Below, one piece after another: positions 2,159-47,100 of a stretch of DNA of 64,000 nucleotides; position 1 is the stretch's first letter; every line of letters begins with the position of its first letter. Origin of the DNA: Okamejei kenojei (Eukaryota). The position numbers and the translations under genes were made by a program. The notes below the pieces were generated by a model. The model did no database searches and was not told the origin of the DNA. It was given only the letters and a program-made list of their open reading frames with translations. The stretch spans positions 28,954,001 to 29,018,000 of the forward strand of contig CM069150.1 in NCBI GenBank assembly GCA_035221665.1, in the 5' to 3' direction.

Positions 2159-5100
2159 GTAATCTCAGTTATCAGCATTCAGCAAAAGATGCTGACATAC
2201 ATTGGTTATTTTTAATGAATTACAACATAGCGATGAGTTGAAAATAGAGTGAAATACATCAGAGACATTGTTTTCCCAAAGCAGCTGTAAATGGCACTGA
2301 CGTTTTCAGGCTCAATGGACCTTTCACTCGCTATGGCATATATTCAAGAATAAAATGGGGATGCTAGTCAGCAAACACTGAGTATCATTAGTCAATATGT
2401 TACCAAATTCAGATGTTGCTCGTTAAAGGACATATAAGAGTACAGTTAAAACCCCACAATATATTGTGTCAAGCGCTGTTTCTAGTGGTTAAATTATACT
2501 CATAAATATTTTTTAATTTAGATGAGAAGAGGGATAAAGCCTGGCAACTAAATATCAGTTGACTAAACATTGGTAATCTTTCAGATGCAATACTGAGGGC
2601 AAAATTAACGCTTATTTACAAATTATGGAATAATACATTTTTCTGCTGGTATTTTCAGGATTTTATACATTTATTTTCTAAAGACAAATCGTATTTGACT
2701 ATTAAAAATGAACTGCAGGTGCTGGTTTATACCAATGTATTTGACTAAGTTGATCAAGTTCTATGATGCTGTTTTGACAGGTCTCCCTGTAACCTCCTGC
2801 AATCCAGAGAAAACAAACCAAGTCTGCCCAACCTCTCCCTATAGTTAATACTCCCTAAACAAGGCATAATTCTGGTAAACCTCCTCGGTATCCTTTCCAA
2901 ATCCTCCACATCCTTCCTATAATGGAGCGACTAGAACTACAGTAATAGTCCAAATGCGGCTTAACAAAAGTCCTTTAAAGCTGCTTCATATCTTCCTGAA
3001 TCTTATACTCTGGGTTTGCTGACTGTCAAATGTTTTCTCACTTAGAGTCACAGAGTCATGCAGCATGAAAACAGGCTCTTCGGCCCAACTTGCCCACACC
3101 GACCCACATGTCCCATCTACACTAGTCCCACCTGCCTGTGTTTGGCCCATACCCCTTTAAACCTGTCCTATCCAAGTACTAGTTTTATGGTTGGGCTTAT
3201 CTGGCCCATTCACTAGACCCTGTAACATTGTGCCAGGCCTGACACTATGCAGAGCCTTGCCAATTGATGCAGAAAACTCCTTACCAGCAGTTCGGTCTTG
3301 CAGACCCACACCAGGCAGCTGGGTACCCATGCAGTGAGTGCAGGGAGTGGTGCTCATTCAACAAAATCTTTGTTGCCCCTGGAAAATTTTCCTCCATTGT
3401 GTACCACAACAGGAAGAGGTGTCTCACACCGACTGGGATATGCATTGTATGTTTATGGAGTCCATGCATTGCAGATATATATCTATAGTTTTCAGCAAGA
3501 ATCAGAATGATTTAATAAAAGAACTGGATGAATGCATAATTTAACATTATTTTCTAATCTTTCCAGGGAGCAGGGATAAGGCAGGAAGAGCTGTATTACA
3601 AATCTGCACGGATAATAGCCTCCTGCAAGGACAATCCTGTACCAGCAATGACCTCACCAGGCTCCTACTGTACCTCCACAACATTCCCAGGTGACATTTT
3701 CCTCGACACTGTTGCTTCATTGTAGGAAGATGCTTCAACGTTTGAGGAAATTTCATTTTTCACTTTTAGTAAAGTAAAGCTCAAAATAACATCAGGTTGG
3801 ATGCTGCATTTAACAGTGTGGAAATTACAACCAGTCGCAACATAGCCAAGGCGCTGGCCAGCCAACAAGATCCAATTCCAATCAGATATGTCGAGCCTCC
3901 AAACACCACTGCAGGAAACAGATGGCTTGGCTTAGTTGGATTTGAACTCTCACTGCTATAGTGATGAAAAGATTGAAAGTGAAGCCTGTTCTCACGTGCT
4001 ACTGACCCAGGTCTTGGCAATTCCATGCATATCTGAGGATCAAAAACCAAGGGTCATCTTATGTTAACATGAGCAGCACAATGGTTTGGGAGCTAGTGCT
4101 GCTCTTGCAAAACTCCAGGCACAGAGTCCGAGCCTGACTTTCTGTATTCATAACATAGAGTTTGCATCATTTCCTCATGAGTGTACAGTTGTCTGACGCA
4201 TGCTCCTGCTTCCTCCTACACTCCATGGCAAGCCAGTAGATTAATCCAGAATTGTAAATTACTTTTTAGTGTAGAAAAACAGCAAATGAATCAAAGGACT
4301 GTTGACCACGTGTGAGAATAAAATTCAGGACACAAGGAAATAAATAGAGGCGAATTGGGAATGATAGGATTGGCCTGCTCGGATTGGCAAGGCGCAAATA
4401 GCCTCATGCTTTCTCATATTAGATAAATTGAACCAGGTGGGAATGTTGATAAATTTGGGCGTAAAGTATTTTTTCTAGGAAGCGATGGGAATGAATCCTA
4501 CAAAGTATGGCGATTTTGAAATGGAATGATTTTAGACAGCCGTCTACATCTTTGGTTATCTTATTCATTTACAAGATAAGTGCAATCAAACTGATTGTGA
4601 AATGCAATAAAGAGCAAATGTTTACTGTATTCCAATGTTTATTTGATGTCCGTCCCTTTGTTTGCAATGTAGAATAAAAAGCCAACCGTGATGGTTTAGT
4701 ACTGCCATCTACTGGAAATAGGAAACTCCATTTATAGTGTTGCATTGTGAAGAGAAACAAGGAGAAACAATAGGGACCACAGCTCTTCCTATCAAGCCAT
4801 TCATGCACAAATGGCCTCCCTATGTGCCCATCAATTTAGAAAGGGTATTCTTATCATCCATCCATCTACCCATCTGATTAGTAACTGGGGACTGAATAAA
4901 ATAGCAGGAAAACTACTACTGATTGTGAACAGGACAAATTTCAGCAACGGTCCTTTGTGTATATAGACGGTGTATCATGTTATTTTGAGGCACCTAGATA
5001 TTTTGGACATCCATAGTTAATTATGCCAAATTTTCTGTACTAATTAAAACAAAAATATGGAAACTTACTTTTAATCTGAATTTTTCCCATCATAGGAAGG

Positions 5101-20100: not shown

Positions 20101-23100
20101 ATAGAATCAGTCGGCAAATAGATCTAAACAATTAAAACACACTTTTCAATGTGATGCTCCACGGCAAAGAGTTTCAGCAAAGTGGCCGCTGTCTGTGTCC
20201 ATTATTTCACGACCATAAAAAGGATTATAAGCATCAATATATTGATATAATCCAGAAGGACTCTGCACCCATCGAGTCCATGCCTGTTCTTTACAGAGCA
20301 ATCTCATCGCTCCCCAAATTATTATTTTTCATTTAATCATCTAATTTCCATCCATGAGCTCAGATCGATTCTGTTCACACTGCATTTACAGGTAGAATGT
20401 TCCAGATCCCACATTTATTTTCCCCTCAGTTTCTCCTTGTATTTTTTGCCTGTTCCCTGAATCATCTGCTAATGGAAGCAGCTTCCCTCTATTTATCGTC
20501 TAAATGTGTCATGATACCACATTATCAGGTCTCCTATTCAATTTCTTTGCTCTCTGAGGAACAACCCCAGATTCTGATTTCTGACTTTGTGCTGAAATAC
20601 CTCAATTGTTCAAGTACCTTGGTAGAGTGATCGGGTTAGACAACACAGAAAAAAGCCCTTTTGGCCCAACCCATCCATGCCAACACTGATGTTTATCTCA
20701 GCTACTCTCATTTGCCTGCGTTAAGCCATTTCCCGCTTATCTTGTCTATCTATGCACCTGTCCAAATATGTTTTAAATTTTGTAACTGTACCCACCTCTG
20801 CCGCTTCCTCTCGCAGTTGGTTCCATATGACATAGAAAATAAAATAGGCACAGGAGGCCATTCGGCCCTTCGAGCCAGCAATTCAATATGATCATGGCTG
20901 ATCATCCAACATCCTGCTCTTTCCTGATATCCCTTGACTCCGTTAGTCCAAAGAGCTAAATCTAATTCTCTCCTGAAAACATCCAGTGAATTGGCCTACA
21001 CTGCTATCTATGGCAGATAATTCCACAGATTCACAACTCTCTGGGTGAAAAGGTTGTTCCTCATCTCAGTCCTACATGGCCTACTCCTTATTCTGTGGAC
21101 CCCGGTTCTGGACTCCCCCAACATCGGGAATTTTTTCCTGCATCTAGCCTGTCCAATCCCTTAAGAATTGTATATGTTTCTATAAGATATCCTCTCATCC
21201 TTCTAAATTCCAGTGAATACAAGCCCATTCAACCTATTCTTTCATCAAATGTCAGTCTCGCCATCCCAATAATTAACCTGGTGAACCTACACTGCACTCC
21301 CTCAATAGCAAGAATGTCCTTCAAATTAGGAGACCAAAACTGCACAATACTCCAGGTGTGGTATCACCAGGGCCCTGTACAACTGCAGAAGGACCTCCTT
21401 GCTCCTATACTCAAATCATCTCGCTATGAAGGCCAACATGCCATTTGCTGCCTGCTGCACCTGCATGCTTACTTTCAGTGACTGATGTACAAGGACACCC
21501 AGGTCTCGTTGCAACTCCACTACCCTCCGTGTGAAAAAGTTACCCCTCGAGTCTCTTTTAAATTTTTCCCCTCTCATCTTAATTCCATTCTCTCTGGTTT
21601 TAGACACCTTTATTCCAGGAAATGATTGTGACCGTCCATTATCCATGTCCCAAATTATTTTATAAGGTCATTCTTCAACCTCTAATGCTTCAGAGATAAA
21701 GGTCTCTCCTTATAACTCAAGGCCTCCAGTTCCAGTAACATCCTCATTATTTTTTTCTGCACCCTTTTCAGTTTAATGACATCCTTCCTATAGCTGGGGG
21801 ACCAGAACTGCACCCAATCCATCAAATCTTACTTGATGTATTGGGTGCAGTTGGCATTTGTACGGAGAAACGCACTTTCATGTGTTGTTGCATTTGTTAG
21901 TCATGTAACCTCTATATTTATAATGGTACTGTGAATATATATGACTCACGATGTTTTGTAACCTTATATATTTGCAGGGATGCCATTGATTCAGTAACAC
22001 CTCTCTATAATACAGTGGAAGAAAGTGTCCATACTCTAGTGATGAAGTCTAATCAGTGTCTGCAGCATTTGGAGTTCTTGCAGAATCTGAGGACACTCGA
22101 GGATAAATTTAAACAGGTTGGAAATTTCACTTTGAAACTGTCTCTATTTCTCTTTCCACGGATGCTGCCTGCCCTTCTGAGCATTTCTAGCATTGCCTCT
22201 TGTAATTTGGGGTTATTTACTCAACAGCTCGGGGGGGGGGGCAATGGATATTGGGAGGAAAAATATGGAATCAGAAATGCTCCAGAAATATCCTGGAAGA
22301 ATATGGTGTGAGAGAGCAAAGATTGACAATGTGACTACAGGGATATAAAGGCATGTCAAACGAAATACATATTTGAAATACATGTCAAATGAAATACATG
22401 ATTTTACTGCAAAGCACAGGGTGAAACTGCAAAGATTTAAAGTTGAACCTATACTCTAGCTAAGCCACAATGGTGATATCTCTGAGCATCTAATTACAAA
22501 GGGGCCACTGATGGGTTGAAAAGCCCACACTACAGATTCATTCATCATCCTCTCTGTGAGAAAAAGGACAAGTATGGCCCTGAAACTGAGCACACACTTG
22601 TAGCTCTCTTCTGGTTCTAATCCCATCCACCATGTTTTGTCCTGTTGTCCAACTGAATCCAATAGATCACTCCCAAAATAATACAAATAGGGACTTTAGA
22701 ATTACATAAGTCACCAAACGTTGTTTGCACTGTGGGAGAGTCAAGGACCAGAGACCATAGCCTCAAAATAAAAGGATGTATCTTTAGAAAGAAGATGAGG
22801 AGGAATTTCTTTAGTCAGAGGGTGGTGAATCTGTGGAATTAATTGCCACATTGAGCTGTGGTGGCCAAGTCAATGGATATTTTTAAGGCAGTGATTGACA
22901 TATTCTTGATTAGTATGGGTGTCAGGGGTTATGGGAAGAATGGAGAAGATTGGGGCTGAGAAGTAAAGATAAATCAGCCATGATTTAAGGGCCTTTATAT
23001 TTCTTTATATAAAGTAGACCTGATGGGCTGAATGGCCCAATTCTGCTCATATAACTTATGAACATGCACTTGTGAAATGCAATTACAGTGCTGCAAATTT

Positions 23101-26100
23101 GGGGATCGTAAACCATGCACATGCTATTTTAGTGTGGCCTATCAACGTTACAAAATGCTCACCTTAATTCATACTTCAAATGCCATTTTACAGAAAATTA
23201 AATGACGTAATTAATTTCCAGGAGTATAATTGCTGGAAATATAGTACAAAACTGAAAATGTCCCATGGAATGCAAAATATGCTTCTGTGATTTCCAGCAA
23301 TTCCCGTTTATAATTGCAGTAAAATTCACTTAATGCTGATTAAAAACATATATTCAATCGTATCTTGCTTTAAAACAATTATTGGAGCGTTCTCTTCATC
23401 TCGTAATCTCGTTATTGCCTCTTCAGCAAAACAACTGGCTTCTTTGTGAAGGTGAACCATATCTGCAGAATTCAGTCATAAGTGGAGATTCACTTAAAGT
23501 CATACAACAAATCCAGCAAAAGTTCAGTGAATTCTTTATATTGGCCACAGTAAGTCATATTACCTATATGTACCTATATGTTTTATTTATATATAATTAT
23601 AACATTCCTAATAATAACATTCACATTTTAAGAGCACCCATAAACTGAGTGCGTTCACCAATTAGATGATATTCAAGGCTGGACAGGGTTTATGTGAAGT
23701 AGGTTAATATTAACCATTTTTTGGAATTCATACACAAGGTGTAAGCACACTGGCAAGGATATATTTATTGATCATCCTAGTTGTTCCCGAGCTGACAATG
23801 GTTAGCAGCCTCTTTAGTCCACTGTGAAGTTGTGTCCACCGTGCTGACAAGTGGAGAGACACAGAACAATGGAGGAATGATTATATTTGTTCCTATTAGT
23901 ATTGTGTGATTTTGAAGGAAATTGGAGGTGCCAATTTCACCTACGTGCTTGGACCTCTGGGTGATAGGAGTTGTGAGTCTGGCAGATGCTATTGAAGAAT
24001 CTTTCATGAGGCACTGCAATGCATTCAGTAGATGGTATTCGCTGCAGCTGCAGTCTGGTGGAGGGATGGGAACTTAAGATGGAGGTTTTGATACTTATGG
24101 TCCCGATAGCAGCATGTCCATGATGCTGCTTAGCTTCTTGAGTGTGTTTGGAACTCGCTCATCCAGGTCGGTTGAGAGTTTCTGCCATATTCCTGCCATC
24201 ATGGGTGACATGATGATGATGCAGTCAATGCTGTTCCCCACAACTGTGGGACCCAGACGGATCCAAACCTTGCCATCTGCATGTGAAGCGCTTTCCACCT
24301 TCTCTCTGTGAGCAGGTGGGTTTCCTCCTGCCATTCTGTTTTCTGCCGTGTCTTAAAGGTTTGCTGGTAGTTTAGTTGGCTGCTATAAATTATCCCTTAT
24401 GGGTAAAAATAATCAAAAGGGAGTTGATAGGTATGTGTGAAGAGATTGGCACTGAGGCACAATGGTATAAGAAGAGGGGGAATGGCACTTATGGGATTGC
24501 TTCCCTGGACCCAATGAGCCAAATAGCTTCCACCCCTGTTGTTATGTTTAAGATTTATCTTATAACCGATGGGAAGGCTTTTGGCTTATGACATTTTCTT
24601 GTAGTTACAATATCAATTGTAGTTCAATTCCCTAATATATGAAAATGGAGGGTGTCAGCATACACCTTTTTATTATGTGAGTTATTGACCTGACCTATTA
24701 GTTCAGCAGAGTGCCTTGTATAGGTTTTTAGTTACATCTCAAATTTCTGTCAGATCAACGAAAACATTATTGATATCTGTATGAAAAGAATTAAGAAGAT
24801 AGAAACATAGAAACATAGAAATTAGGTGCAGGAGTAGGCCATTCAGCCCTTCGAGCCTGCACCGCCATTCAATATGATCATGGTTGATCATCCAACTTAG
24901 TATCCCGTACCTGCCTTCTCTCCATACCCTCTGATCCCCTTAGCCACAAGGGCCACATCCAACTCACTCTTAAATATAGCCAATGAACTGGCCTCAACTA
25001 CCCTCTGTGGCAGAGAGTTCCAGAGACTCACCACTCTCTGTGTGAAAAAAGTCTTTCTCATCTCGGTCTTAAAGGATTTCCCCCTTATCCTTAAGCTGTG
25101 ACCCCTTGTCCTGGACTTCCCCAACATCGGGAACAATCTTCCTGCATCTAGCCTGTCCAACCCCTTAAGAATTTTGTAAGTTTCTATAAGATCCCCTCTC
25201 AATCTCCTAAATTCCAGAGAGTATAAACCGAGTCTATCCAGTCTTTCTTCATAAGACAGTCCTGACATCCCAGGAATCAGTCTGGTGAACCTTCTCTGCA
25301 CTCCCTCTATGGCAATAATGTCCTTCCTCAGATTTGGAGACCAAAACTGTACGCAATACTCCAGGTGTGGTCTCACCAAGACCCTGTACAACTGAAGTAG
25401 AACCTCCCTGCTCCTGTACTCAAATCCTTTTGCTATGAAAGCTAACATACCATTCGCTTTTTTCACTGCCTGCTGCACCTGCATGCCTACTTTCAATGAC
25501 TGGTGTACCATGACACCCAGGTCTCGCTGCATCTCCCCTTTTCCTAATCGGCCACCATTTAAATAATAGTCTGCTTTCCTGTTTTTGCCACCAAAGTGGA
25601 TAACCTCACATTTATCCACATTATACTGCATCTGCCAAACATTTGCCCACTCACCCAGCCTATCCAAGTCACCTTGCAGTCTCCTAGCATCCTCCTCACA
25701 GCGAACACTGCCCCCCAGCTTAGTGTCATCCGCAAACTTGGAGATATTGCCTTCAATTCCCTCATCCAGATCATTAATATATATTGTAAATAGCTGGGGT
25801 CCCAGCACTGAGCCCTGCGGTACCCCACTAGTCACTGCCTGCCATTGTGAAAAGGACCCGTTTACTCCTACTCTTTGCTTCCTGTTTGCCAGCCAGTTCT
25901 CTATCCACATCAATACTGAACCCCTAATACCGTATGCTTTAAGTTTGTATACTAATCTCTTATGTGGGACCTTGTCGAAAGCCTTCTGGAAGTCCAGATA
26001 TACCACATCCACTGGTTCTCCCTTATCCACGCTACTAGTTACATCCTCGAAAAATTCCACAAGATTCGTCAGACATGATTTACCTTTCGTAAATCCGTGC

Positions 26101-29100
26101 TGACTTTGTCCAATGATTTCACCACTTTCCAAATGTGCTGCTATCCCATCTTTAATAACTGACTCTAGCAGTTTCCCCACTACCGATGTTAGACTAACTG
26201 GTCTGTAAGCAGACTATTATTTAAATGGTGGCCGATTAGGAAAAGGGGAGATGCAGCGAGACCTGGGTGTCATGGTACACCAGTCATTGAAAGTAGGCAT
26301 GCAGGTGCAGCAGGCAGTGAAAAAAGCGAATGGTATGTTAGCTTTCATAGCAAAAGGATTTGAGTACAGGAGCAGGGAGGTTCTACTTCAGTTGTACAGG
26401 GTCTTGGTGAGACCACACCTGGAGTATTGCGTACAGTTTTGGTCTCCAAATCTGAGGAAGGACATTATTGCCATAGAGGGAGTGCAGAGAAGGTTCACCA
26501 GACTGATTCCTGGGATGTCAGGACTGTCTTATGAAGAAAGACTGGATAGACTCGGTTTATACTCTCTGGAATTTAGGAGATTGAGAGGGGATCTTATAGA
26601 AACTTACAAAATTCTTAAGGGGTTGGACAGGCTAGATGCAGGAAGATTGTTCCCGATGTTGGGGAAGTCCAGGACAAGGGGTCACAGCTTAAGGATAAGG
26701 GGGAAATCCTTTAAGACCGAGATGAGAAAGACTTTTTTCACACAGAGAGTGGTGTCTCTGGAACTCTCTGCCACAGAGGGTAGTTGAGGCCAGTTCATTG
26801 GCTATATTTAAGAGTGAGTTGGATGTGGCCCTTGTGGCTAAGGGGATCAGAGGGTATGGAGAGAAGGCAGGTACGGGATACTGAGTTGGATGATCAGCCA
26901 TGATCATATTGAATGGTGGTGCAGGCTCGAAGGGCTGAATGGCCTACTCCTGCACCTAATTTCTATGTTTCTATGTTTCTATGTTTCTATGTAATTCCCC
27001 GTTTTCTCTCTCCCTCCCTTCTTAAAAAGAGGGGTTACATTTGCTACCCGCCAATCCTCAGGAACTACTCCAGAATCTAAAGAGTTTTGAAAGATTATCA
27101 CTAATGCATCCACTATTTCCTGAGCTACTTCCTTAAGTACTCTGGGATGCAGCCTATCTGGCCCTGGGGATTTATCGGCCTTTAATCTATTCAATTTACC
27201 CAACACCACTTCCCGACTGACCTGGATTTCACTCAATTCCTCCTTTGACCCACAGTCCCCTGCTATTTCCGGCAGAAGATGGGTGGAAATATAAAGATGG
27301 CTCAAAACTAACACAGTAATTAGGACAGAGACACTTAAATTGTATTTATACCTTGCCACGTCTTTGAACACAAACCACCTTTATCTTATACCTCCGCATA
27401 TAACTTAGCATCATGTTTGTTAACACTCTTATGAAACATCTTGGGTTAATAAGGTGCCACAAATATAACTTGCTACGTAACATAGAAACTAATATTGCTC
27501 CACTTTACAATTGTCTTACTATTGTACCTTACAGCAGGAATACAAAAAGAGTTTGGAGCTGTTGCAGGAGGCAAATCAACTGGATGGTTTCTCGTATCCT
27601 GAGTTTTCAGTGTTCAAAGATATGGTGGAAGAATTTAAAACACGACTTGACAATTTTCACATTAGTGCTAAGAAACAGCAGGCAGAATTGAATGCTCTAG
27701 TCAACCTGTACAACTACTGTGATAAGGTTTGTAAAAAGAAAAACATAATGGCAAGTATTGTATAATAAATATCACATTACCTTATCTTTCTCCCCAAATA
27801 TTGAAGAATGTGAAGCTGAATAAAATATAAATGAACTTAAAAAACAATTCTATAACATGACTGATTGGCATAAATAAAATCTTTCAAATAAAAATGTATA
27901 TGCAGAAATTGTAAGGGTATCTTCCTTAGGAAGTTATTGGCTGATATCAGCACAAATAAGTTCCAGTTGTCAATATAGTGATACGATTTCCATCCAAACA
28001 GTCGAGTACTGACTGTACTCATTCCTCAAATGGTAAGATAATTGGGATAATTACAATAAGTAGAATTTAAGCAGCAGAAACCAAAGTATAAGACAACTTT
28101 GCATCAGTAAAACTTAAAGACAAGGACATTGAAAGGGTGGTTAGGGAATGGATGGTGGTGGGCAACAGCATTTAACCAACCTGGATGATATTTGAAAAGC
28201 ATTGTGTGGTGTTGGCTAGGCTGATGAAGTAAGAGATTAGGCAAATCTGAATGGAAAATACACCCTATACGAAGACAATGTCCACAGACATGTGAGGGAG
28301 TACCAGTTTCAAGATGCCCACTGGTGTAAACTTTAACTTAAAAATGAGTTCAACAAGCACGTTATATGTGAAAGGAACATAAAACTCTCACAGCAAAGCA
28401 GAATGACCCCACCAAATGTGTGGGTTGAACACCACAGCCAATTACGTCTAGGTTTTATTTTCCTTCTAACACACCACAGGAGAACTCCACTGGCAAATTG
28501 AATAGATTCAGTCAGGGATTTGGAGGCAGGACCAGAATCTTCAGGTGATTCAGGCTGGAAAGCAGGTGCTTGATGAAGGGATTGCCAGTTGTATCATAGT
28601 CAAGCAGATTGTTCATTCTCAAATGTGGAAACTGAATTAAGAAAGGCTAGTAATCACAGAGCTTTGGAAAACAATGATGAAATAATTATTAAAACTGCTT
28701 TTAGAAACCTGCTCCCTGACTGTCTCTGTTGTGCTTTGTTGATCGGCTTGCTGGGGAGTTGATGATAGGGAGCTGAATTTCCCAACAGGCTGCCCTTTAT
28801 GTTTGCTGCAACTTTGGCAGGATATTTATAGAAACACCATAGAAGCAGAACAGACAGCTTTTGTTCATTTCACTGGCATTTCTGCAAATCTTATTGCAGG
28901 CACTATGGACAACTGGGAAAATCCCTATGGAAACTATCAGAGTGAGCCTTATGAATTTTCAAGTATGTGAGTGTTTTGCCACTCAATATATGGGTAAATC
29001 ATATGACAAACCTGTTTCACCTGTCAAAAGATCAAATCCCTGCTTCCCAGACTTAGGAATATACAGTAAATAGATACACAAAGGATGCATGGAAGCTCAA

Positions 29101-32100: not shown

Positions 32101-35100
32101 ACATTATGGAAGAGATATTGATCACTGAGAGGGAGTATGTCCGTTCCCTTGGATACGTCACTTCACAATACTTCCCTGAGATGGATCGTATGGACCTTCC
32201 GCAGGATTTGCGGGGACATCGAGGGACCATCTTTGGAAATCTAGAGAAACTGTATGACTTCCATAGCCAGTACTTCCTGAAGGAGCTGGAAAGCTGTGCA
32301 AGGGACCCCATCAGAGTTGGACGCTGCTTCCTTAGACACGTGAGATGCCGATTGATCTCCTACATATTCTTTACCAACATAAAAAATAATCTGTCTCTTA
32401 GATTACACACTTCTTTTGAATTATAGGACTTTGTTTAGGCCGCATTGAGATAATTGCATGCTGTTTTCGTCATCCCGTTCCATGAAAGACGTGGAAAGAG
32501 GACAGAGGAGGTTTGCCAGAATGATGCCTGGAATAGGGGGCATTAGTTACAGCAAGATGTTGGACAGACTTGGATTGTTTAGTTCTGAATGCCAGTACTT
32601 AAGGGGAGGCCTGATAGAAGTATATAAAATTATAAGTGGCACAGTAGTGGTAGGGTAGACTTTTGGAGGATGGACTGTCCTAGGATGGAAATATCAAGTA
32701 CAAGAGGGCAGAGCTTTAAGGTGAGAGAGGAAAGGTTTAAAGAAGATGTGCAAAACATATTTTTTTACACAAAGTGTTATGAATGCCTGGAACGCGCCGC
32801 ATGGGATGGTGGAGGTGGCAGATATGATAGTGGCATGTAAAATACATTTGGATCGGCACGTGGATATGCGGAGATGGAACGATATGGATTATGTGCAGGC
32901 AGATAGGAGTAAGTCTTGGCACCATGTTTGGCACAGACATTTGGGCCGAAGGGCCTGTTCCTGTGCTGTACTGTTCTATGTTCTATGTTCTATGTTCGCT
33001 ACCCTTTTCTCAATGCATTCCAATATCTTCCTAATGTATTTTCCTTCAGAAGCAACATCTTTGGAGGGAAATGGCCAACCATTGGTTTAGGTCAAGACTT
33101 TTCATGTAGACAGTCTGGATGAAAGGTCCTGGTCCAAAACATCAACTGCTCATTTCCCTCCACAGATGCTGCCTTCCTCCACGGAGTTTCTTTTACAGAT
33201 TCCAGTATCTGCGTCTGTGGTGCTTCTCTACTCCCTTATACTTGTATAGTTTATTTTTACATTAATTATTGCAATCACTTCAACTTTGTGTGTGGTTTTC
33301 CCCTTAGTTTCAATAGCTATAACTTTACTTTCCTTGAGATGTGCAATAAGCATATCTTTCAGCATTATTTTGCATTTTCACACATTATAACTACACCAAC
33401 TTGCAGGGGGTGATCAGAACATTTTAAACAAGTGTTGTTAGAAATCAAGTGGTGTGCACTAAATATTGGAAACCCGTGTCTGATCCACATTACATCAGTT
33501 GCATCCAGAAATGCTTTGTACATTGACTGCATGTTTGATTTTCCCCATGTGAGACAGCAGGAAAATCACACAATTCATGGAATTTCCAGTATTCCACAAT
33601 TTCCCAATGTTATTTGACGAGCAGAAGAAGGAGACATTAATAAATCCATGCCAGTAATGGTTGATTTCTGCTATGACACGATCATTAGCTAGAACAGCTA
33701 ATCCTATCAGATCCTTTGAAGTATGAGAAAAAAAAACATTGTTTTAATAAGCTGTTGTCAGTGATAATTAAATTGATAATTACAATTGCTTCATTATTAA
33801 AAAGGAGTTTGCACCTTTCTTTCTTTTATTTTAGGAGAAGCAGTTTGGACTGTATGCGCTGTACAGCAAGAACAAGCCCCGATCAGACTTACTGCTCAGC
33901 AGCCATGGAAACACCTTTTTCAGGGTATGTGTTTGAACTTATCTTAATTCTGGTGCAGCGATCTTGCATTGAAGTGACTAAAACCTCGTCAGTTCAGGCT
34001 GCCACCCTGCTGAACAAAAACTGTAGCCAATCCAATATGGTGGCCATCATTCCTCCAAGCAAAGCTTGGTACATGGTTCTGACAAAATAGTCAGCCTCAT
34101 TTATGTCAGTTTTACTCCAAAACACAGAACAAAGCAAGTTGAACCTTTTGTGTGCAAAGGAAATGCAAATGCTATGTTTAAACCAAAGATGGATACAAAG
34201 ATCTGGAGTAACTCAATGGATTAGACAACATCTCTGGAGAAATTGAATAGGTGACATTTCAGGTCGAGACCCTTCCTCAGAAAAAAACCTTCACAAAAAA
34301 GATACTCTAGCTTTTTGTTTTAAAGAAGGAACTGCAGATGCTGGAGAATCGAGGGTACACAAAAAGCTGGAGAAACTCAGCGGGTGCAGCAGCATCTAAG
34401 GAGCGAAGGAGATAGGCGACGTTTCGGGTCAAGACCCTTCTTCAGACTGAAGAAGGGTCTCGACCCGAAACGTCGCCTATCTCCTTCGCTCCTTAGATGC
34501 TGCTGCACCCGCTGAGTTTCTCCAGCTTTTTGTGTACCCTCTAGCTTTTTGTGTCTATCTCAAGTTGAACATTTTAGCTTCCTCCTTTCACCTCAGCGTT
34601 CCAACCCCGAGTATCACCCCAAACTAAACCTACCTCCAAAGCTGTGTGATTTTGGAACCTCATTCATAAACATCGTTAACATTAAGAACCACATGACTAC
34701 TGAATGCCCTGCAAACCACCCCATAAAATGCACTAAATATAACTTTAGATGTAGTCAAATCCTCTAAAATTTTCATCAATATAAAACTCCTCATAATCAC
34801 ATCATATTTTCAAGACAAGTCAAGAGTGTTTTATTGTCTTATGTCCCGGATGGGACAATGACATTCTTACTTGCTGAAGCACAACAGAATATGTGAATAT
34901 GTAAACATAGTACATAACGGGGGAAGAGAAAAAAAAGAAAAAGTTCAATAAATAACAAATATAGTACAATAATAATATAGTCTTTTATAGTTCAGAGCTC
35001 AGAGCTTATTCATTGTTGTGTTTAATAGCCTGATGGCTGTAGGGTAGAAGCTGTTCCTGTTACAGTTTTCAGGCTCCAGTACCACCTTCCTGATGGCAAT

Positions 35101-38100
35101 GGTGAGATAAGTGTGTGGCCAGGATGGAGTGTGTCCTTGATGGTTTTGGCTGCCTTTTTGAGGCAGCGACTACCATAGATCCCTTTGATGGTGGGGAGGT
35201 CAAAGCTGGTGATGGACTGGGCAGTGGTCACAACCTTTTGTAATATTTTTCGCTCCTGGACGGTCAAGTTGCTGAACCAGGCCACGATGCAACCAGTCAA
35301 AATGCTCTCTACCATGCACCTGCAGAAGTTCTTCGACATGCCGAATCTCCGTAATCTTCTCAGGAAGTAGAGTCGCTGATGTGCCTTCTTTATAATTGCA
35401 TCGGTTTGCTGGGTCCAGGAAAAATCTTCAGAAATATGCACGCCCAGAAATTTGAAGGTATTGACCCTCTCCACCATCGTCCCATAGATATGAACAGGAT
35501 TGTGGGTCCACTTCCTTCCCATACCAAAGTCCACATCAGTTCCTTGGTCTTACTGATGTTGAGAGCTAGGTTGTTGTGCTGGCACCATTTGGTCAGTCGG
35601 TCGATCTCACTTCTATACTCTGACTCGTCCCCATCTGTGATTCATCCAGCCACAGTGGTGTCGTCAGCAAACTTGATGATGGAGTTCACATTATGTCTGG
35701 CTACGCAGTCATGGGTATAGAGTGAGTAAAGCAGGGGGCTGATATCTGTTCCAATATTGAACAAATAAATCTGAATATTATTATTATTGTCACATGTATT
35801 GAGGTGCAGTGAAAAGCTTTGCTTTGCATGCTATCCAAACAGATCAGATATATACAATTGTGAAACTCAAGTTCAATAGATAGAGCCAAAATGACGATGC
35901 AGAGTGCAAAATATAGCTCTCAGCATTGTATCGTAACAGTTGCATAGACAAAGTCCAATGTCTACAATGGGATAGAGGTAAATAGAGTACTGACTGACAT
36001 TGACTGAGAGGTTATTGCCCTGACACCATGTCTCTAAGTTCTCTATCTCCTTCCTGAACACCATCTCATCATTGTTTGTGATCTGGCCCACCACTGTGGT
36101 GGCATTTACTAATTTCTGGATAAGGTTAGAGCCAAATTTGGCTGCGCAGTCATGAGTGTATAGGGAATATAGTAGGGGACTGAGAACGTAACCTTGAGGA
36201 GTATCAGTGTTGAGAATTGGATGCCTCGGTAGGTCTTCCCACCCAAACCACCCCTTCTGCAGGTACCTTCCCCTGCAACCGCAGAAGATGCAACACCTGT
36301 CGCTCTACCTCAATCTTTTCAGGTTAGGCAGAGGTTCACTTGCACCTCCTCCAACCTCATCTACTGTATCCGTTGTTCAAGATGTGGACTCTTATACATC
36401 AGCGAGACCAAACGCAGACTGGGCAATTGTTTCGCGCAACACCTTCGCTCACCCCGTGTGAACCAACCTGATCTCCCAGTTCATCAGGATATGATTACAG
36501 GTGCGGGTCAAGGCCTACACTTGGTCAGGTCTTTAGGTCAGATGGGGTTGGTGCCTCTTCAATGTCAGGGCCTGCACTCAGTCAGGCCTAATGGTTCGGA
36601 GAGGTCGATGGTCCTTCCATATCGGGATCCAGTCAGGTCGGCCGTTACGTGAGCGCGAGGCATAGGAGGATACGTGGATGCTGCAGGCTTCACCAATCAC
36701 AGTAGGCCTCACTGTCCGGTTGGCTCAGGACAGGTAAGGCCTTCACTCCTGAGGATCATGGGATCTTCAGACCTGCAGGAAATATTATTAAAACATTTAT
36801 AAATTATGCTATACTTACAAGTAGAAAAGAGATTTAAAAGATTAGAGCATGTATCACATAGTAGTCGATCTTTCTCTGAGAAGAGCATGCAAAGAGTCAC
36901 AATGATCCAGCACCATCTTGCCATCTGCGGTATCCACGTTCATATGCCATTTGCGGAACCAATCTGTATAAATATGCTGACGAGTTCCCAGATACTTGGG
37001 GCTAGTGGCTACACACTATATGACATCCCAGCTGCTGTCCTGATAGAGAGCAGCCTAATGCACAACTGGGTCTTGTGGCTTTGAAAACCAGTCCCTGCTA
37101 TAAATCACTACACTCGATGGAAATTGTTCATTGATTGCTGCTTGCATATATTAACAATTTCTATATTATTGATGTACCCATTGACCATATTTCAATGCTC
37201 TCCAGCAGTTATTAAGAGTCAAGTCTAGAGTTGAAGCTGTTAATTTTCACATGCACTGGGAAGGGAATAATGAAGTTGTTACTTGCTGGAGATTTACAGG
37301 CACATTAATGCAACAAATAACTATACAATAAACCATAATACGATAAATTAATAGTTATTCTAGATAAACAGGCCAGAATTGTGCAAGCAGAAGAATATAG
37401 TGCCTGTAAAAATGGGGAATGGGGGTCACAAAAGCTGGAGGTGATAAATGGAACGCACCCAGACACACACTTTGTAAGCTGTATGTAGGGTGAAAATGAG
37501 AAGCGAGTGTGACGTGGGTGGGTGAGGGGGGGGGGGGGGGGGGAATAGAAAGAGAGGGAATGCTGGGACTACCTGAAGTGAGAGAAATCCAAATTTATAC
37601 CATTGGGCTGTAAACTGCCCAAGCGAAATATGAGATGCTGTTCCTCAAATTTGCATTTAGCCTCACTCCGAGGACAAAGGTCTGTGTAGAAAAGGGAAGG
37701 AGAATGGAAGTGTCCAGCATCTGTGAGGTCAAGTTGGTTCACATGGGATGAACGAAGGTGTTCCGCGAAACGATCACCCAGTCTGCGTATGGTCTCGCAA
37801 ATGTATAAAAGTCCACATCTTGAACAACGGATACAGTAGATGAAGTTGGAGGAGGCGCAGTGAACCTCTTCCAAATCTGAAAGGATTGTCGGTGTCCCTG
37901 GACAGAGACGAGGGAGGAGGTATAGGGACAGGTGTTGCATCTTCTGCGGTTGCAGGGGAAGGTACAGAGGTAGGGGTGGTTTGGGTTGGAAGTTATGAGT
38001 TAACCAGGGAGTTGCGGAGAGAACAGTCTCTGCGGGAAGACAGAAAGGGGTGGAGATGTGAAAATGTGGCTATTGGTGGGATCCCGTTGGAGGTGGTGGA

Positions 38101-41100: not shown

Positions 41101-44100
41101 TGTTAAAATCGATACTGCCTCCACCACTTCTGCTGGAAGCTCATTCCACACAGCCACCACTCTCTGAGTAAAGAAGTTCCCCCTCATGTTACCCCTAAAC
41201 TTTTGTCCCTTAATTCTCATGTCATGCCCTCTTGTTTGAATCTTCCCTAACCTCAATGGGAAAAGCTTATCCACGTCAACTCTGTCTGTCCCCCCTTAAC
41301 CTTTTGTGCTCCAAAGAATAAAGACCTAACTTATTCAACCTTTCTCTGTAACTTAGTTGCTGGAACCCAGGCAACATTCTAGTAAATCTCCTCTGTACTC
41401 TCTCTATTTTGTTGACACCCTTCCTATAATTAGGCGACCAAAATTGTACACCATACTCCAGAATTGGTCTTACCAATGCCTTGTATAAATTTTAGCATTA
41501 CTTCCCTACTGCTATATTCAATGCTCTGATTTATAAAGACCAGCACACCAAAAGCTTTCTTTACTACCCTGTCTACATGCGATTCCACCTTCAGGGAACT
41601 ATGCACAGTTATTCCTAGATCCCTCTGTTCCTCAGCATTCCTCAATTCCCTACCATTTACCATGTACGTCCTATTTTGATTTGTCCTGCCAAGATGTAGC
41701 ACTTCACACTTATCAGCATTAAACTCCATCTGCCATCTTTCAGCCCACTCTTCCAAATGGCCCAAATCTCTCTGTAGACTTTGAAAATCTACTTCATTAT
41801 CCACAACACCACCTATCTTAGTATCATCTGCATACTTACTTATCCAATTTTCCACCCCATCATCCAGATCATTGATGTACATGACAAACAACAGTGGACC
41901 CAACACAGATCCCTGAGGCACCCCACTGGTCACTGGCTTCAAACCTGACAAACAGCCATCCACCATTACTCTCTGACATCTCCCATTCAGCCGCTGTTGA
42001 ATCCATCTTGCTACTCCGCCATTAACACCCAAAGATTGAACCTTCTTAACCAACCTTCCATGGGGAACCTTGTCAAAGGCCTTACTGAAATCCATATAGA
42101 AAACATCCACTGCTTTACCCTCATCAATTTCCCTAGTAACCTCTTCAAAAAATTCAAGAAGGTTTGTCAAACATGACCTACCAGGCACAAATCCATGTTG
42201 ACTGTTCCTGATCAGACCCTGTTTATCCAGATGCTTATATATATTATCTCTAAGTATCCTTTCCATTAATTTGCCCACCACTGACATCAAACTAACAGGT
42301 CTATAATTGCTAGGTTTATTCTTTGAACCCTTTTTAAACAATGGAACAACATGCACAGTACGCCAATCCTCCGACACTATTCCCATTTCTAATGACATTT
42401 GAAATATTTCTGTCATAGCTCCTGCTATTTCTGCACTAACTTCCCACAATGTCCTAGGGAATATCCTGTCAGGACCTGGAGACTTATCCACTTTTATATT
42501 TTTCAAAAGAGTCACTACTTCCTCCTCTTTGAATCTCATTGTTTCCATAGCTATTCTACTTTTTTCCCTTACCGCACAGAGTTCAATATCCTTCTCCTTG
42601 GTGAATACTGAAGAAAATAAATTGTTCAATATCTCCCACATCTCTTTTGGCTCTGCAGATAGCTGTCCATTTTGGCTCTCTAATGGTCCAATGTTATCCC
42701 TCATTATCCTTTTGCTATTAATATAACTAGAAACCCTTTGGATTTACTTTCACCTTTCTTGCCAAAGCAACCTCATATCTTCTTTTAGCCTTTCTAATTT
42801 CTTTCTTAAGATTCTTTTTACACTCTTTATTGTCATCTAGCACCTCATTTCCTCCATGCCTCCTATAATTATTGTAGATATCTCTCTTTTTTCGAAACAA
42901 GTGTCCAATTTCCCTTGAAAACCATGGCTCTTTCCAATTTTTACTATTTCCTTTCAACCGAACAGGGACATAAAGATTCTGTACTCTTACAATTTCCCCT
43001 TTAAATGTCCCCCATTTCTCTTCTACATCCTTCCCATAAAACAAAATGTCCCAATTCACTCCTTTTAAATCCTTACGCATTCCCTCAAAGTTAGCCTTTC
43101 TCCAATCAAAAATCTCAACGCTAAGTCCAGTTCTGACTCTCTCCATAATTATATTGAAACTAATGGTATTGTGATCACTGGTCCCGAAGTGTTCAACAAC
43201 GCATACCCCCGTCACCTGACCTGCCTCATTTCCTAACAGGAGTTCCAGCACTGCCCCTTCTCTGGTCGATACCTCTATGTATTGCTGCAAAAAACTATCC
43301 TGCACACATTTTACAAACTCCAAACCATCCAGCCCATTTACAGAATGTGTTTCCCAGTCTATTTTTTGGAAAATTGAAATCTCCCACAATCTCTACTTTG
43401 TGCTTACTACTAATATCTGCTATATCCTTACATATTTGCTCTTCCAATTCTCGCTCCCCATTTGGCAGTCTATAATACACCCCTAAAAGTGTTGCTACAC
43501 CATTCCCACTTCTCAGTTCCACCCAAATAGCCTCCCTAGACAAGCCCTCTAATCTATCCTGCCAAAGCACTGCTGTAATATCTTCTCTGACAAGCAATGC
43601 AACACCTCCACCTCTGGTCGCTCCAATTCTATCACACCTGAAGCAACGAAATCCTGGAATATTTAGTTTCCAATCACAGCCCTCCTGCAACCATGTTTCA
43701 CTGATTGCCACAACATCATATTTCCAGGTGTCAATCCAGGCTCTAAGTTCATCCACCTTTCTTACAATGCTCCTAGCATTAAAATATAGACATTTTAGAA
43801 ACCCACCATCCCTTATTCTTGTCTATTATCTTTTTCCTCTTACTCACCTACATTTTGTGTCCGAGTGCTTCCCTTCTCTGCCTCTTGCCCCGCACCCTGT
43901 CCCCTAGCCCCCTCTACCCGAGTCCCTCCCCCCAGCCTTTCTAGTTTAAAGTCTCCCCAGTAGCCTTTGCAATTCTCCCTGCCAGGATATTGGTCCCCCT
44001 CGGGTTCAAGCGCAACCCGTCCTTTTTTTACAGATCATGCCTTCCCCAAAAGAGGTCCCAGTGATCAAGAAACTTGAATCCCTGCCCACTGCACCAGCCC

Positions 44101-47100
44101 CTCAGCCACGCATTTATCCTCCACCTCATTCCATTCCTACTCTCACTGTCACCTGTCACGCGGCACAGGCAGTAATCCTGAAATTGTTACCCTTTTGGTC
44201 CTTCTCCTTAACTTTCCCCCCAACTCCCTAAATTCTCCTTTCAGGACCTCTTCTCTTTTTCTGCCTATGTCATTGGTACCTATGTGCACCACAACATCAG
44301 GCTCCTCTCCCTCCCTTTTCAGAATCTTTTGGACACGTTCCGACACCTCCGAGACCCTGGAACCAGGGAGGCAAACTACCATCCGGGTCTCCCAACTGCG
44401 TCCACAGAATCGCCCATCCGACCCCCTAACTATAGAGTTCCCTAATACAATTGCCCTCCTCTTTTTGCTACCCTTCTGAGCATCAGGGCCGGTCTCTGTG
44501 CCAGAGGCCCAGCCGCTGTTGCTGCCCCCAGGTAGGCTGTCCCCTCCAATCGTACTCAAACACGAGTACCTATTTTCCAGGTGTACAGTCACAGGGGTAC
44601 TCTCTAGCCCCTGCTTCTGCCCCTTGCCCTTCCTAACCGTGACCCACTTGTCTGCCTCCTGTGGTCTGGGAGTGACTACCTCCCTGTAGCTCCTCTCTAT
44701 GACCTCCTCGCTCTCCTTGACCAGACGGAGGTCATCGAGCTGCTGCTCCAGATTCCTAACACAGTCTTTTAGGAGCCCCATCTCGACACACCTGGCGCAG
44801 ATGTGGTCGCCTGGAGGGCTATCAGATTCCCTGAACTCCCACATCTGACATGCAGAACAGTACACTGCCCTGGCCTTCATACTCCCCCCCCCCCCCCCCC
44901 CCCCCCACTTACACAGGATACAATATCAACATAATACAAAGTACACAACAAATCTGACTGCCAATCAACTGCTTACCCTAGTCCACTTCCCACCAATCCG
45001 CGGCTTCCTCAAAAAATTCACCCAAAAAAAACCACTTCCCCGAATGGAACGTTATGGATTCCGGTAAGCCCCACACTGGATTTTAAACCTTACTGGTCTG
45101 GTGTCGCTCCTCCCCCTCCTTCTCTTCCAACGGCTCCTGTGGGCCTCTGAAAAAACAAGCCCCGCGCTGAATTTTAAACCTTACCGATGGGGTGTCGCTC
45201 CTCCCCCTCCTTAGCTTCCAACAGCTCCTGTGGGCAATCCTGGTATTAACCTCATGCTTATACATTCCTTTGTGCAAACCTTACTCACAAGAGAGACGTT
45301 GTGACGTCTTCAGATGAAGAACATCTATCTAAAGTAAAGCAATAATAAATTGCATTTAGCGTGGCAAAAATGTAATATGTTAATATCGGTTGCTTTCTCA
45401 TATATTTCCTTTAGGAAGTTAAATGAATGTTTTATATGTGATTTATTGTCTGATTATCCTGTTAACCTGGAACAATAATGATTCATATTACGCTGTGAGC
45501 TAGATAACAAAAGATGAGATCCTGTAAAGTTTAATTAAAGACTGCATAGTTTCTGCAGACTTCAGCTCAATTATCAGTTTTCATATGAAATTGTGTATGA
45601 ATATGTGCTGCACAAGTGGGCCATTCGGCCCATTAAACCTGCTTCATATAAGCAACAAGGCTGTTAACCTGAATTCTGCACCTTTCTCAAAATTCTCCTC
45701 TGCATTGACAAAAAAATCAAGACTGCTCCACTGGCCTTTGTGGAAGAGAGTTGCAAAGGCAAATGACCCGGAAATGTTGCTTTGCATTGATTTTGTAAAA
45801 AGTAAGTGTTCGGCATCAGCAGCCTAATCGTTCCGTGCAGCAAATGCATATCACAGATTCTCCATGCACTCTCATATTGAAGTGACAGGAAAGTGGTAGT
45901 GACACTGTCAACATTAGCCTCAAAGAACATCAGTATCCTTGGGATTTCCACTGAGACACATGCAAATGTGGGAGGTCTAAGCTATTACCAGTAGTCTACA
46001 GCTGGATAGCTGAAGTGAAGAATTTGACAAAGATAAATAAATCATGAGTTTCCAAAGGATAAATCTACTGCTGTACGATTGATTTAATCTTGATCGTTGT
46101 GTGTTTTGTTTTATTATTTTGTAATTCAGACTTCTGAAATTGGAATGACACATAACTCTGGTGAAAGTGGACAGCGTTTTGAAATTTGGTTCAGAAGACA
46201 GAAATCCCAAGATACTTATATCTTGCATGCATCAACTCCAGATGTGAAACAGGCGTGGATAGATGATTTAGAGAAAATATTATGGAACCAAGCGTTGAAG
46301 AACAGAGGTCAGTAAATTAACAGGAATTAACAGGAAGGTTGAAGAATGCCATAAAGCCAGTAATAGTCTTCTCCTTAAACTCAAATTTCTCCTAATTATG
46401 CTAATATAACTTGATATGTTGTGCACTTTTTTAAATTATTGTATTTTTTTAAATAAAATCAATTATTCTGATGCATCTTGTTGTCATGGGACTGAACATA
46501 ACATGCATGTTCCAGTGATTATTAATAGTAAGTGGTCTGTCATATAAATGACAGAAGATAAAATATATTTATTCGGTGAAGATATAATTTAATCTCTTGC
46601 TCAGATTTACAACAATACTTGGAGGGCCAGCTTCTTGCTTACTGTTACCATTACAAAGTCACCAAGTTACATTCTAAAATGTGCGGATAAAAAATATGTG
46701 GTTAGGATAGCTTTGCCAACATCTTACCGACTGTGACCTTTGGACATTGGCAAAGCTAAATGTAGTTTATTGAATTGAACTTGTTCTGACTTTTGTCATT
46801 GCAAACCTTCGGTGATCATTGTTTGGAGGCAAAGTATCAACATGCTGCTACGCATCTGGTCAGTTAATGAAATGTTAAGGCATCAAGGTCATAAATTTCT
46901 TTTACAATATGTGCCTAATTGTTTTCATGGTAACAAGCAACACTTTTTTTGTGATGGTATGCACCAGTATGGTGTATGGGCACCTCTAGAATGTTGAATA
47001 CTAGATGGATGTACAGCAGCTAATAGTGTCGTATGAAAAGTTATTCGTGAATCGGCACCTTTCATCTGCAAAGAAAGTACTGGTGACAAGGTGGTCTGAG

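What the first reader, a model, noticed from the sequence alone, without database searches (positions are those of the whole stretch)
24799..26990. A young CR1 LINE contains an inverted, ~99% identical copy of its own 3' end, creating a giant intronic hairpin
Seen: left arm 24799-25576 and right arm 26207-26990 are reverse complements around a 630-bp spacer. By eye they differ by only about three substitutions, a 2-nt deletion and one extra tail unit. The outer copy has its own 7-bp TSD (agaagat). Its ORF2 resumes exactly in frame after the inner copy (EKTGNY|RPVSL), and tgtaa is duplicated at the junction. Both copies carry complete 3' tails, so this is not ordinary twin-priming 5' inversion. 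Established: closely spaced near-identical inverted repeats are unstable and are substrates for ADAR and Dicer. Inference: either a self-targeted or coupled double retrotransposition by a currently active family, or arm homogenisation by gene conversion. Host pre-mRNA would fold ~780 bp of dsRNA that could produce anti-CR1 endo-siRNAs or alter splicing of exons 9-10.
Basis: partly seen in the sequence, partly recalled or inferred. Interest (0 to 1): 0.72.

Follow-up and report, generated by a model that had tools for sequence, protein, structure and literature searches.

The report
CR1 copy nested inside its sibling
One young copy of a very abundant jumping gene sits backwards inside another copy of the same family in an intron of a skate-like fish gene; it most likely got there by an ordinary second insertion, and such nests occur in this genome about as often as chance predicts.

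Summary
The structure is real in the assembly. A 5'-truncated CR1 (24799-27276, minus strand, 7-bp target duplication) holds a second, inverted 5'-truncated copy (26207-26992) with its own tail and 5-bp duplication, in an intron of a PLEKHG4B-like gene. The arms differ by 3 substitutions and a 2-nt deletion.

The special interpretation is mostly not supported.
- The subfamily has at least 18,617 copies, so about 39 inverted young-in-young nests are expected by chance.
- A genome-wide scan of a 300-bp target found 7 complete inverted nests among 12 hits, against 6.2-7.6 expected. In 2 of the 7, guest and host come from different sub-lineages.
- Arm identity is ordinary: 164 of 1,176 random pairs differ by 3 substitutions or fewer, and the arms share no private variant.

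One residue remains: a 553-bp identical block (4 of 1,176 random pairs have one as long). It leaves gene conversion (about 25%) or a same-RNA coupled event (about 10%) open. The pre-mRNA would fold a long duplex, but editing, siRNA and splicing effects are untested. The junction was not confirmed in reads. The scan's notes hold no earlier report of this architecture.

The parts
23424..23549 (+). Upstream host exon (9th in the window) of a PLEKHG4B-like RhoGEF gene; intron donor GT at 23550
   Evidence: tblastn with P0002/P0003; splice site
24794..24800 (.). Left copy of the outer element's 7-bp target-site duplication; 2 nt overlap the tail
24799..26208 (-). Outer CR1, 3' piece: C-terminal ORF2 with RT domain (open frame 24897-26213), 3' UTR, 23-nt octamer tail; left arm is 24799-25576
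   Evidence: Pfam RVT_1 E 8e-32
26204..26208 (.). Left copy of the inner element's 5-bp duplication; 2 nt overlap the inner 5' end
   Evidence: the 28-mer across this junction occurs once in the genome
26207..26992 (+). Inner CR1, 5'-truncated (ref 4037-4809), 33-nt octamer tail; private CpG transition and a 2-nt deletion that shifts the ORF2 remnant
26990..27276 (-). Outer CR1, 5' piece (ref 3121-3408), 5'-truncated inside ORF2; begins with the right copy of the 5-bp duplication
27274..27280 (.). Right copy of the outer 7-bp duplication; 3 nt overlap the element's 5' end
27538..27726 (+). Downstream host exon (10th in the window); acceptor AG ends at 27534 or 27537, about 255 bp from the insertion

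Best explanation
This is most likely two ordinary, separate CR1 retrotransposition events: a 1.67-kb 5'-truncated copy landed in the intron, and a 0.78-kb copy of the same young subfamily later landed by chance inside it on the opposite strand. Shown: each copy has its own tail, 5' truncation, short target duplication and 2-3 nt end overlaps, and the host resumes without loss. Inferred: the inner RNA's tail paired with 3 nt of the host's sense strand to prime reverse transcription. The arms are near-identical because both derive from the commonest source haplotype and each has gained only two changes in the shared region. The host pre-mRNA would fold a duplex of about 750 bp, probably one of many such passive substrates with no special role.
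For: Copy number: 18,617 exact matches to a young-specific 30-mer in 2.76 Gb. Mean length 1,256 bp in 100 unselected copies gives 0.85% of the genome and about 79 expected young-in-young nests, 39 inverted. Targeted scan: 12 hits; 7 are complete inverted nests (L239, L241, L242, L243, L246, L247, and the error-rich L236) against 6.2-7.6 expected. Guest and host differ at lineage markers in L242 and L246. A looser scan gave 137 hits; most of the 30 read are young copies in older hosts. 6 of 100 sampled copies sit inside older CR1 copies, where CR1 fills 9.1% of flanks. Arm distance: 76 of 1,176 random pairs differ by 4 events or fewer; 164 of 1,176 by 3 substitutions or fewer. No private variant is shared. 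Left-arm 24884T and 24898T are absent from 98 of 98 covering copies. The right arm's deletion recurs at 11 other loci, of several haplotypes in the 9 profiled, so it is slippage rather than lineage. The shared haplotype is the commonest, 28 of 59. Nested CR1 is documented: 1,978 cases in chicken, same-subtype cases discarded as uninformative (PMC2169234, passages).
Against: All four differences lie in the distal 204 of 751 bp. Only 4 of 1,176 random pairs have an identical run of 548 bp or more (16 of 1,176 counting substitutions only), and 1 of 49 full-arm copies matches that block exactly. Uniform placement gives 0.5-2.7%. Both copies are younger than the median (outer 3 private substitutions in 1,670 bp, 1.8/kb, against 2.8/kb). 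Among 9 other inverted pairs with scorable markers, 6 share them, where random pairs share the full haplotype 30% of the time; this is a weak hint, as several have only partial markers. The scan covered only a 300-bp target and would not have caught this locus's own insertion site. The sample is the first 100 motif hits on one contig.
Confidence: 0.8

Rival explanations
1. Nested insertion followed by gene conversion between the arms, which homogenised the loop-proximal 553 bp. This is compatible with the best explanation and adds to it.
For: Perfect block of 553 bp with all differences distal. Likelihood ratio 6.4-6.7 over independence before any penalty for tract position and length. Two other inverted pairs have near-identical arms: L238 (3 substitutions in 481, all at the inner 5' end) and L240 (0 in 295).
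Against: No shared private variant in the block, which conversion would often leave. With my assumed tract penalty of 0.1-0.2 the ratio is near 1. The other complete nests show 3.8-17 substitutions/kb between arms, against 4.0 here, so homogenisation is not general.
Confidence: 0.25
2. One coupled event. While making the second strand of the outer copy, ORF2p jumped from the nascent strand's 3' end to a CR1 RNA tail (perhaps its own template) through 3 nt of pairing, copied 780 nt, then returned through 2 nt of pairing, duplicating 5 bp.
For: The inner copy is primed from the host's sense strand, and the 5-bp duplication is fully accounted for by the 3+2 nt overlaps. Same haplotype and similar age give a likelihood ratio of 2.4-2.6. 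Template jumping is proposed for LINE 5' joining (PMC2666801, passages). 6 of 20 direct pairs read have a young copy abutting a young 3' piece with no host 5' piece.
Against: No excess of inverted nests. Two nests join different lineages. The same junction anatomy is expected from ordinary insertion. The direct 'dimers' share no private variants, and their number plus complete direct nests (10-11 among 20 hand-picked from 79 hits) is near my rough chance figure of about 9, so deletion within ordinary nests can explain them.
Confidence: 0.1
3. Assembly or chimeric-read artefact (fold-back), or polishing that erased differences in the repeat interior.
For: No read-level confirmation of the junction. 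Sampled copies carry many 1-bp indels that suggest residual errors in this assembly.
Against: The arms carry four separate changes and different tail lengths. Both elements have target duplications. The host continues exactly beyond the inner copy, and the same architecture recurs at 7 other loci. A fold-back read would not give this. Polishing could explain the 553-bp block but not the nest.
Confidence: 0.04
4. The hairpin is functional: a source of anti-CR1 endo-siRNA or a modifier of host splicing.
For: Predicted fold of 24850-26940 pairs 725 bases arm to arm (-1627 kcal/mol). Both arms lie in one intron, which the insertion lengthens from about 1.5 to 4.0 kb.
Against: No RNA evidence was obtainable. 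4 of 100 sampled copies have an inverted neighbour at 94-99% identity within about 3 kb, and longer nested arms exist (L239 1,075 bp, L247 983 bp), so the locus is not unique. The duplex ends over 500 bp from the acceptor and 1.2 kb from the donor.
Confidence: 0.08

Closest known systems
Nested CR1 insertions / transposition in transposition (PMC2169234, passages)
   Same: A CR1 inserted within a CR1 with host sequence on both sides; random targeting assumed; same-subtype nests exist and were discarded.
   Different: Here guest and host are both very young (over 99% alike) and inverted, in a cartilaginous fish.
Inverted Alu/LINE pairs as unstable or dsRNA-forming repeats (PMC10164571, passages; editing of inverted pairs recalled)
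   Same: Two near-identical inverted retroelement arms in one intron.
   Different: The spacer is 630 bp. In the yeast assays quoted, going from a 12-bp to a 100-200-bp spacer cuts instability 20- to 300-fold. Inverted nests are not depleted here (7 against 6-8).
Twin priming and dual priming (PMC2837659, abstract and section 11)
   Same: Inverted LINE sequence inside one outer target duplication; dual priming uses two RNAs.
   Different: In dual priming the two tails form the two outer ends. Here the second tail is internal, host sequence resumes beyond it, and the inner copy has its own duplication. Twin priming does not duplicate the 3' end.
ZfL2-2 integration anatomy (PMC2666801, passages)
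   Same: 5' truncation and short target duplications (20 bp or less); 5' and 3' microhomology are scored there too.
   Different: That is the zebrafish element ZfL2-2 in cultured cells; no self-nesting was described in the passages seen.

Membership tests
CR1 LINE | ORF2 reverse transcriptase | tested here: met
   Pfam RVT_1 E 8e-32 on 24900-26207
CR1 LINE | APE-type endonuclease and esterase-like ORF1 in the full-length family member | tested here: met
   L149 (99% identical to both copies): Exo_endo_phos E 2.6e-13, Lipase_GDSL_2 E 2.5e-12. That esterase ORF1 marks CR1/L2 is recalled.
CR1 LINE | 3' octamer microsatellite tail, no poly(A) | tested here: met
   8-bp unit, 23 and 33 nt; feature stated in PMC4316615 (passage)
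CR1 LINE | 3' UTR hairpin; RT tree placement in CR1 rather than L2 | not tested
Nested TPRT insertion | Host contiguous on both sides of the guest | tested here: met
   ref 3121-3408 and 3404-4809
Nested TPRT insertion | Guest has own tail, 5' truncation and target duplication | tested here: met
Nested TPRT insertion | Host-only allele existed before the guest | not testable with these tools
   needs population or relative genomes; none held
Twin priming | Inverted 5' segment not overlapping the 3' segment; one tail | tested here: not met
   two tails; inverted segment duplicates the 3' end
Dual priming | Two tails at the two outer ends inside one duplication | tested here: not met
   second tail is internal, followed by 285 bp of host
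Self-targeted or same-RNA insertion | Excess of inverted self-nests; shared private variants | tested here: not met
   7 against 6.2-7.6; no shared private variant
Gene conversion between arms | Identity tract with shared private variants | tested here: inconclusive
   553-bp tract present, no shared private variant
Endo-siRNA / ADAR substrate locus | Small RNA or edited reads from the arms | not testable with these tools
   the runs that hold the stretch are contigs only; uninformative

The most novel reading that the evidence does not exclude
The inner copy was written during the outer copy's own integration: the reverse transcriptase jumped from the growing second strand onto a CR1 RNA tail and back, a route to inverted self-duplications that is distinct from twin and dual priming and would contribute a minority of the nests and tandem dimers in this family.
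Probability: 0.1. Interest if true: 0.6.

Novelty: already known. Interest (0 to 1): 0.17.

Why it matters
As an ordinary nest it matters little, but it gives a useful baseline. In this genome near-identical inverted CR1 nests persist at about the chance rate, so they are neither targeted nor visibly purged, and tens of long, near-perfect duplex substrates are expected. If the same-RNA route were true it would show that LINE ORF2p makes the second strand and can switch to RNA while doing so, which is an open step of non-LTR integration (PMC2666801 calls the completion of integration unclear).

Tried and rejected
Read support: laid contigs of four runs on 24850-26940; 4,125-40,895 records per run came from the whole family and no row addressed the junction. 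Word shares (0.95-0.96 for one sample, 0.88 for a second sample of the same organism, 0.73-0.74 for organism B) cannot separate presence from absence, because about 73% of the stretch is family sequence.

Amplified composite source: rejected; the inner junction 28-mer occurs once.

24898 as a lineage marker: suggested by similarity-selected loci but overturned by the unselected sample (98 of 98 C). The left-arm double variant occurs at 2 loci only; the second (L162) gave no alignable profile.

Direct-orientation control: searches (839 hits; 79 hits) are not comparable with the inverted counts because the motif is shared with older subfamilies. I read 30 of the 79 as short loci and 20 hand-picked ones as 8-kb loci, so no clean orientation ratio is claimed.

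Rows dropped from the 12 inverted hits: L237 (112-bp gap), L238 and L240 (host 3' piece missing or degraded), L244 (95% guest, mixed host), L245 (89% guest).

Automatic target-duplication calls on 85 of the 100 sampled copies are unreliable at 4-5 bp and were not used. One search used a reference spoiled by a segmental duplication (L079/L080) and was redone. DNA search returned nothing. Three of 100 sampled copies are old or partial and were kept in the length mean.

Literature searches listed no paper on an inverted self-nested CR1; the library lacks most subscription papers, and no supplements were read.
Full report
OBSERVATION. They differ by three substitutions and one 2-nt deletion, all in the tail-proximal 230 bp, and are identical over the inner 553 bp. 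The unit extends to 27280. Against an uninterrupted 4.8-kb genomic copy (L149), the outer element is ref 3121-3408 plus 3404-4809 and the inner is ref 4037-4809 on the opposite strand. The outer has a 7-bp duplication with 2-nt and 3-nt end overlaps and a 23-nt tail. The inner has a 5-bp duplication with 3-nt and 2-nt overlaps and a 33-nt tail. The junction is unique in the genome. Read-level confirmation failed for lack of resolution.

CONTEXT. The window is G000:C20:28954001-29018000 of a 2.76-Gb genome. The host is a PLEKHG4B-like RhoGEF gene on the plus strand; the exon at 27538-27726 is 98% identical to a skate protein, and 18 exon matches span the window. The insertion of about 2.5 kb lies in the intron 23550-27537. 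The element has an RT domain; the long relative L149 adds an APE-type endonuclease and a GDSL-esterase ORF1; the tail is an octamer repeat, a CR1 feature according to PMC4316615 (passage). No tree was built.

IS IT MORE THAN CHANCE? A young-specific 30-mer has 9,294 + 9,323 exact matches. I fetched the first 100 listed places as an unselected sample. Mean length is 1,256 bp and median 760, so the subfamily fills about 0.85% of the genome, and random insertion predicts about 79 young-in-young nests, 39 inverted. In the sample 6 of 100 copies lie inside older CR1 copies (5 same strand, 1 opposite; CR1 fills 9.1% of flanks), 0 of 100 inside a young one, and 4 of 100 have an inverted neighbour at 94-99% identity within about 3 kb. 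A genome-wide pattern for a 3' end followed within 300 bp by antisense family sequence gave 137 hits; of 30 read, most are young guests in older hosts. The young-specific version gave 12 hits. Seven are complete nests like this one (one of them error-rich), and five were dropped for the reasons listed under Tried and rejected. Chance predicts 6.2-7.6 for that target. So there is no excess and no visible depletion. In L242 and L246 guest and host differ at lineage markers; in L236, L239, L241 and L247 they agree; L243 has no marker.

ARE THE ARMS TOO ALIKE? Among 49 sampled copies that cover the arm, 76 of 1,176 pairs differ by four events or fewer and 164 of 1,176 by three substitutions or fewer. 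Each arm has two changes of its own. The left has 24884T and 24898T (0 of 98 sampled copies; the pair occurs at 2 loci genome-wide). The right has a CpG transition (3 of 98) and a deletion that recurs at 11 other loci, of several haplotypes in the 9 that could be profiled. No private variant is shared. Both arms carry the commonest haplotype (28 of 59). The outer copy has 3 private substitutions in 1,670 bp against a sample median of 2.8/kb.

Against my reading: the identical block is long (4 of 1,176 pairs match it; 1 of 49 copies equals it). A simple likelihood model gives conversion a ratio of 6.4-6.7 before any penalty for tract geometry and a same-RNA origin 2.4-2.6. Also, 6 of 9 other inverted pairs share their scorable markers. 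These keep conversion (about 25%) and coupling (about 10%) open, but neither is needed.

MECHANISM. Most likely two TPRT events. The first gave a 1.67-kb antisense intronic copy. In the second, a CR1 RNA tail paired with 3 nt at a nick in the host's sense strand, reverse transcription stopped after about 780 nt, and the 5' end was joined through 2 nt, duplicating 5 bp. The anatomy is shown; the order and the pairing steps are inferred. Short duplications, 5' truncation and microhomology scoring are described for ZfL2-2 (PMC2666801, passages). Twin priming and dual priming (PMC2837659, abstract and section 11) predict other layouts.

CONSEQUENCE. The pre-mRNA would fold 725 arm-to-arm pairs in the stretch folded. 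Editing is plausible by analogy with inverted Alu pairs (recalled) but untested. Longer nested arms exist elsewhere (1,075 and 983 bp at about 99% by substitutions); this locus stands out mainly for its perfect block. With a 630-bp spacer, DNA instability should be far lower than for tight inverted repeats (PMC10164571, passages).

KNOWN OR NEW. Nested CR1 is routine: 1,978 cases in chicken, with same-subtype nests discarded as uninformative (PMC2169234, passages). Eight literature searches listed no paper on this exact layout, which I read as lack of note rather than novelty. The scan's notes hold two head-to-head chimeras of different elements in this genome but nothing with this architecture. 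Verdict: real, ordinary, already known kind; interest 0.17.

Noticed in passing
L292, L294, L295, L296, L297, L300 (G000 C1, C4, C6, C10, C14, C19): Young copy whose tail directly abuts the 3' piece of a second young copy, same strand, with no host 5' piece; three join at ref 4477-4479. Either direct nests collapsed by deletion or template-jump dimers; no shared private variants.
   Followed up: partly
L238/L280 and L240/L282: Inverted young pairs in which the host's 3' piece is missing or degraded and the arms are nearly identical (3 substitutions in 481 bp; 0 in 295 bp). Candidates for conversion, insertion-linked deletion or hairpin-driven loss.
   Followed up: partly
L308 (G000:C11:14306000-14314000): An older CR1 copy with a tandem duplicate of its own 3' 240 bp that shares 12 variants: a true local self-duplication.
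   Followed up: no
window 34351-34541: 95-bp arms, 99% complementary, 1 nt apart: two copies of a short interspersed repeat forming a near-perfect palindrome in another intron of the same gene; a tighter hairpin than the finding.
   Followed up: no
window 36263-37965: Inverted pair (139 bp at 88%, 49 bp at 96%) about 1.2-1.6 kb apart; a GIY-YIG-like (Penelope-type) reading of the frame at 37569-38069 is recalled, not tested.
   Followed up: no
window 41430-45235 and 20830-21521: A decayed near-full-length CR1 with ORF1, endonuclease and RT frames on the minus strand, and an older 3' fragment at 76% identity in the neighbouring intron.
   Followed up: no
L149 5' end (ref 1-540): The long family member begins with tandem units of about 90 bp, also seen at window 45066-45235.
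   Followed up: no
L079/L080 (G000:C1 near 1.98 and 2.00 Mb): An 8-kb or longer tandem segmental duplication at 97% identity that includes a young CR1.
   Followed up: no
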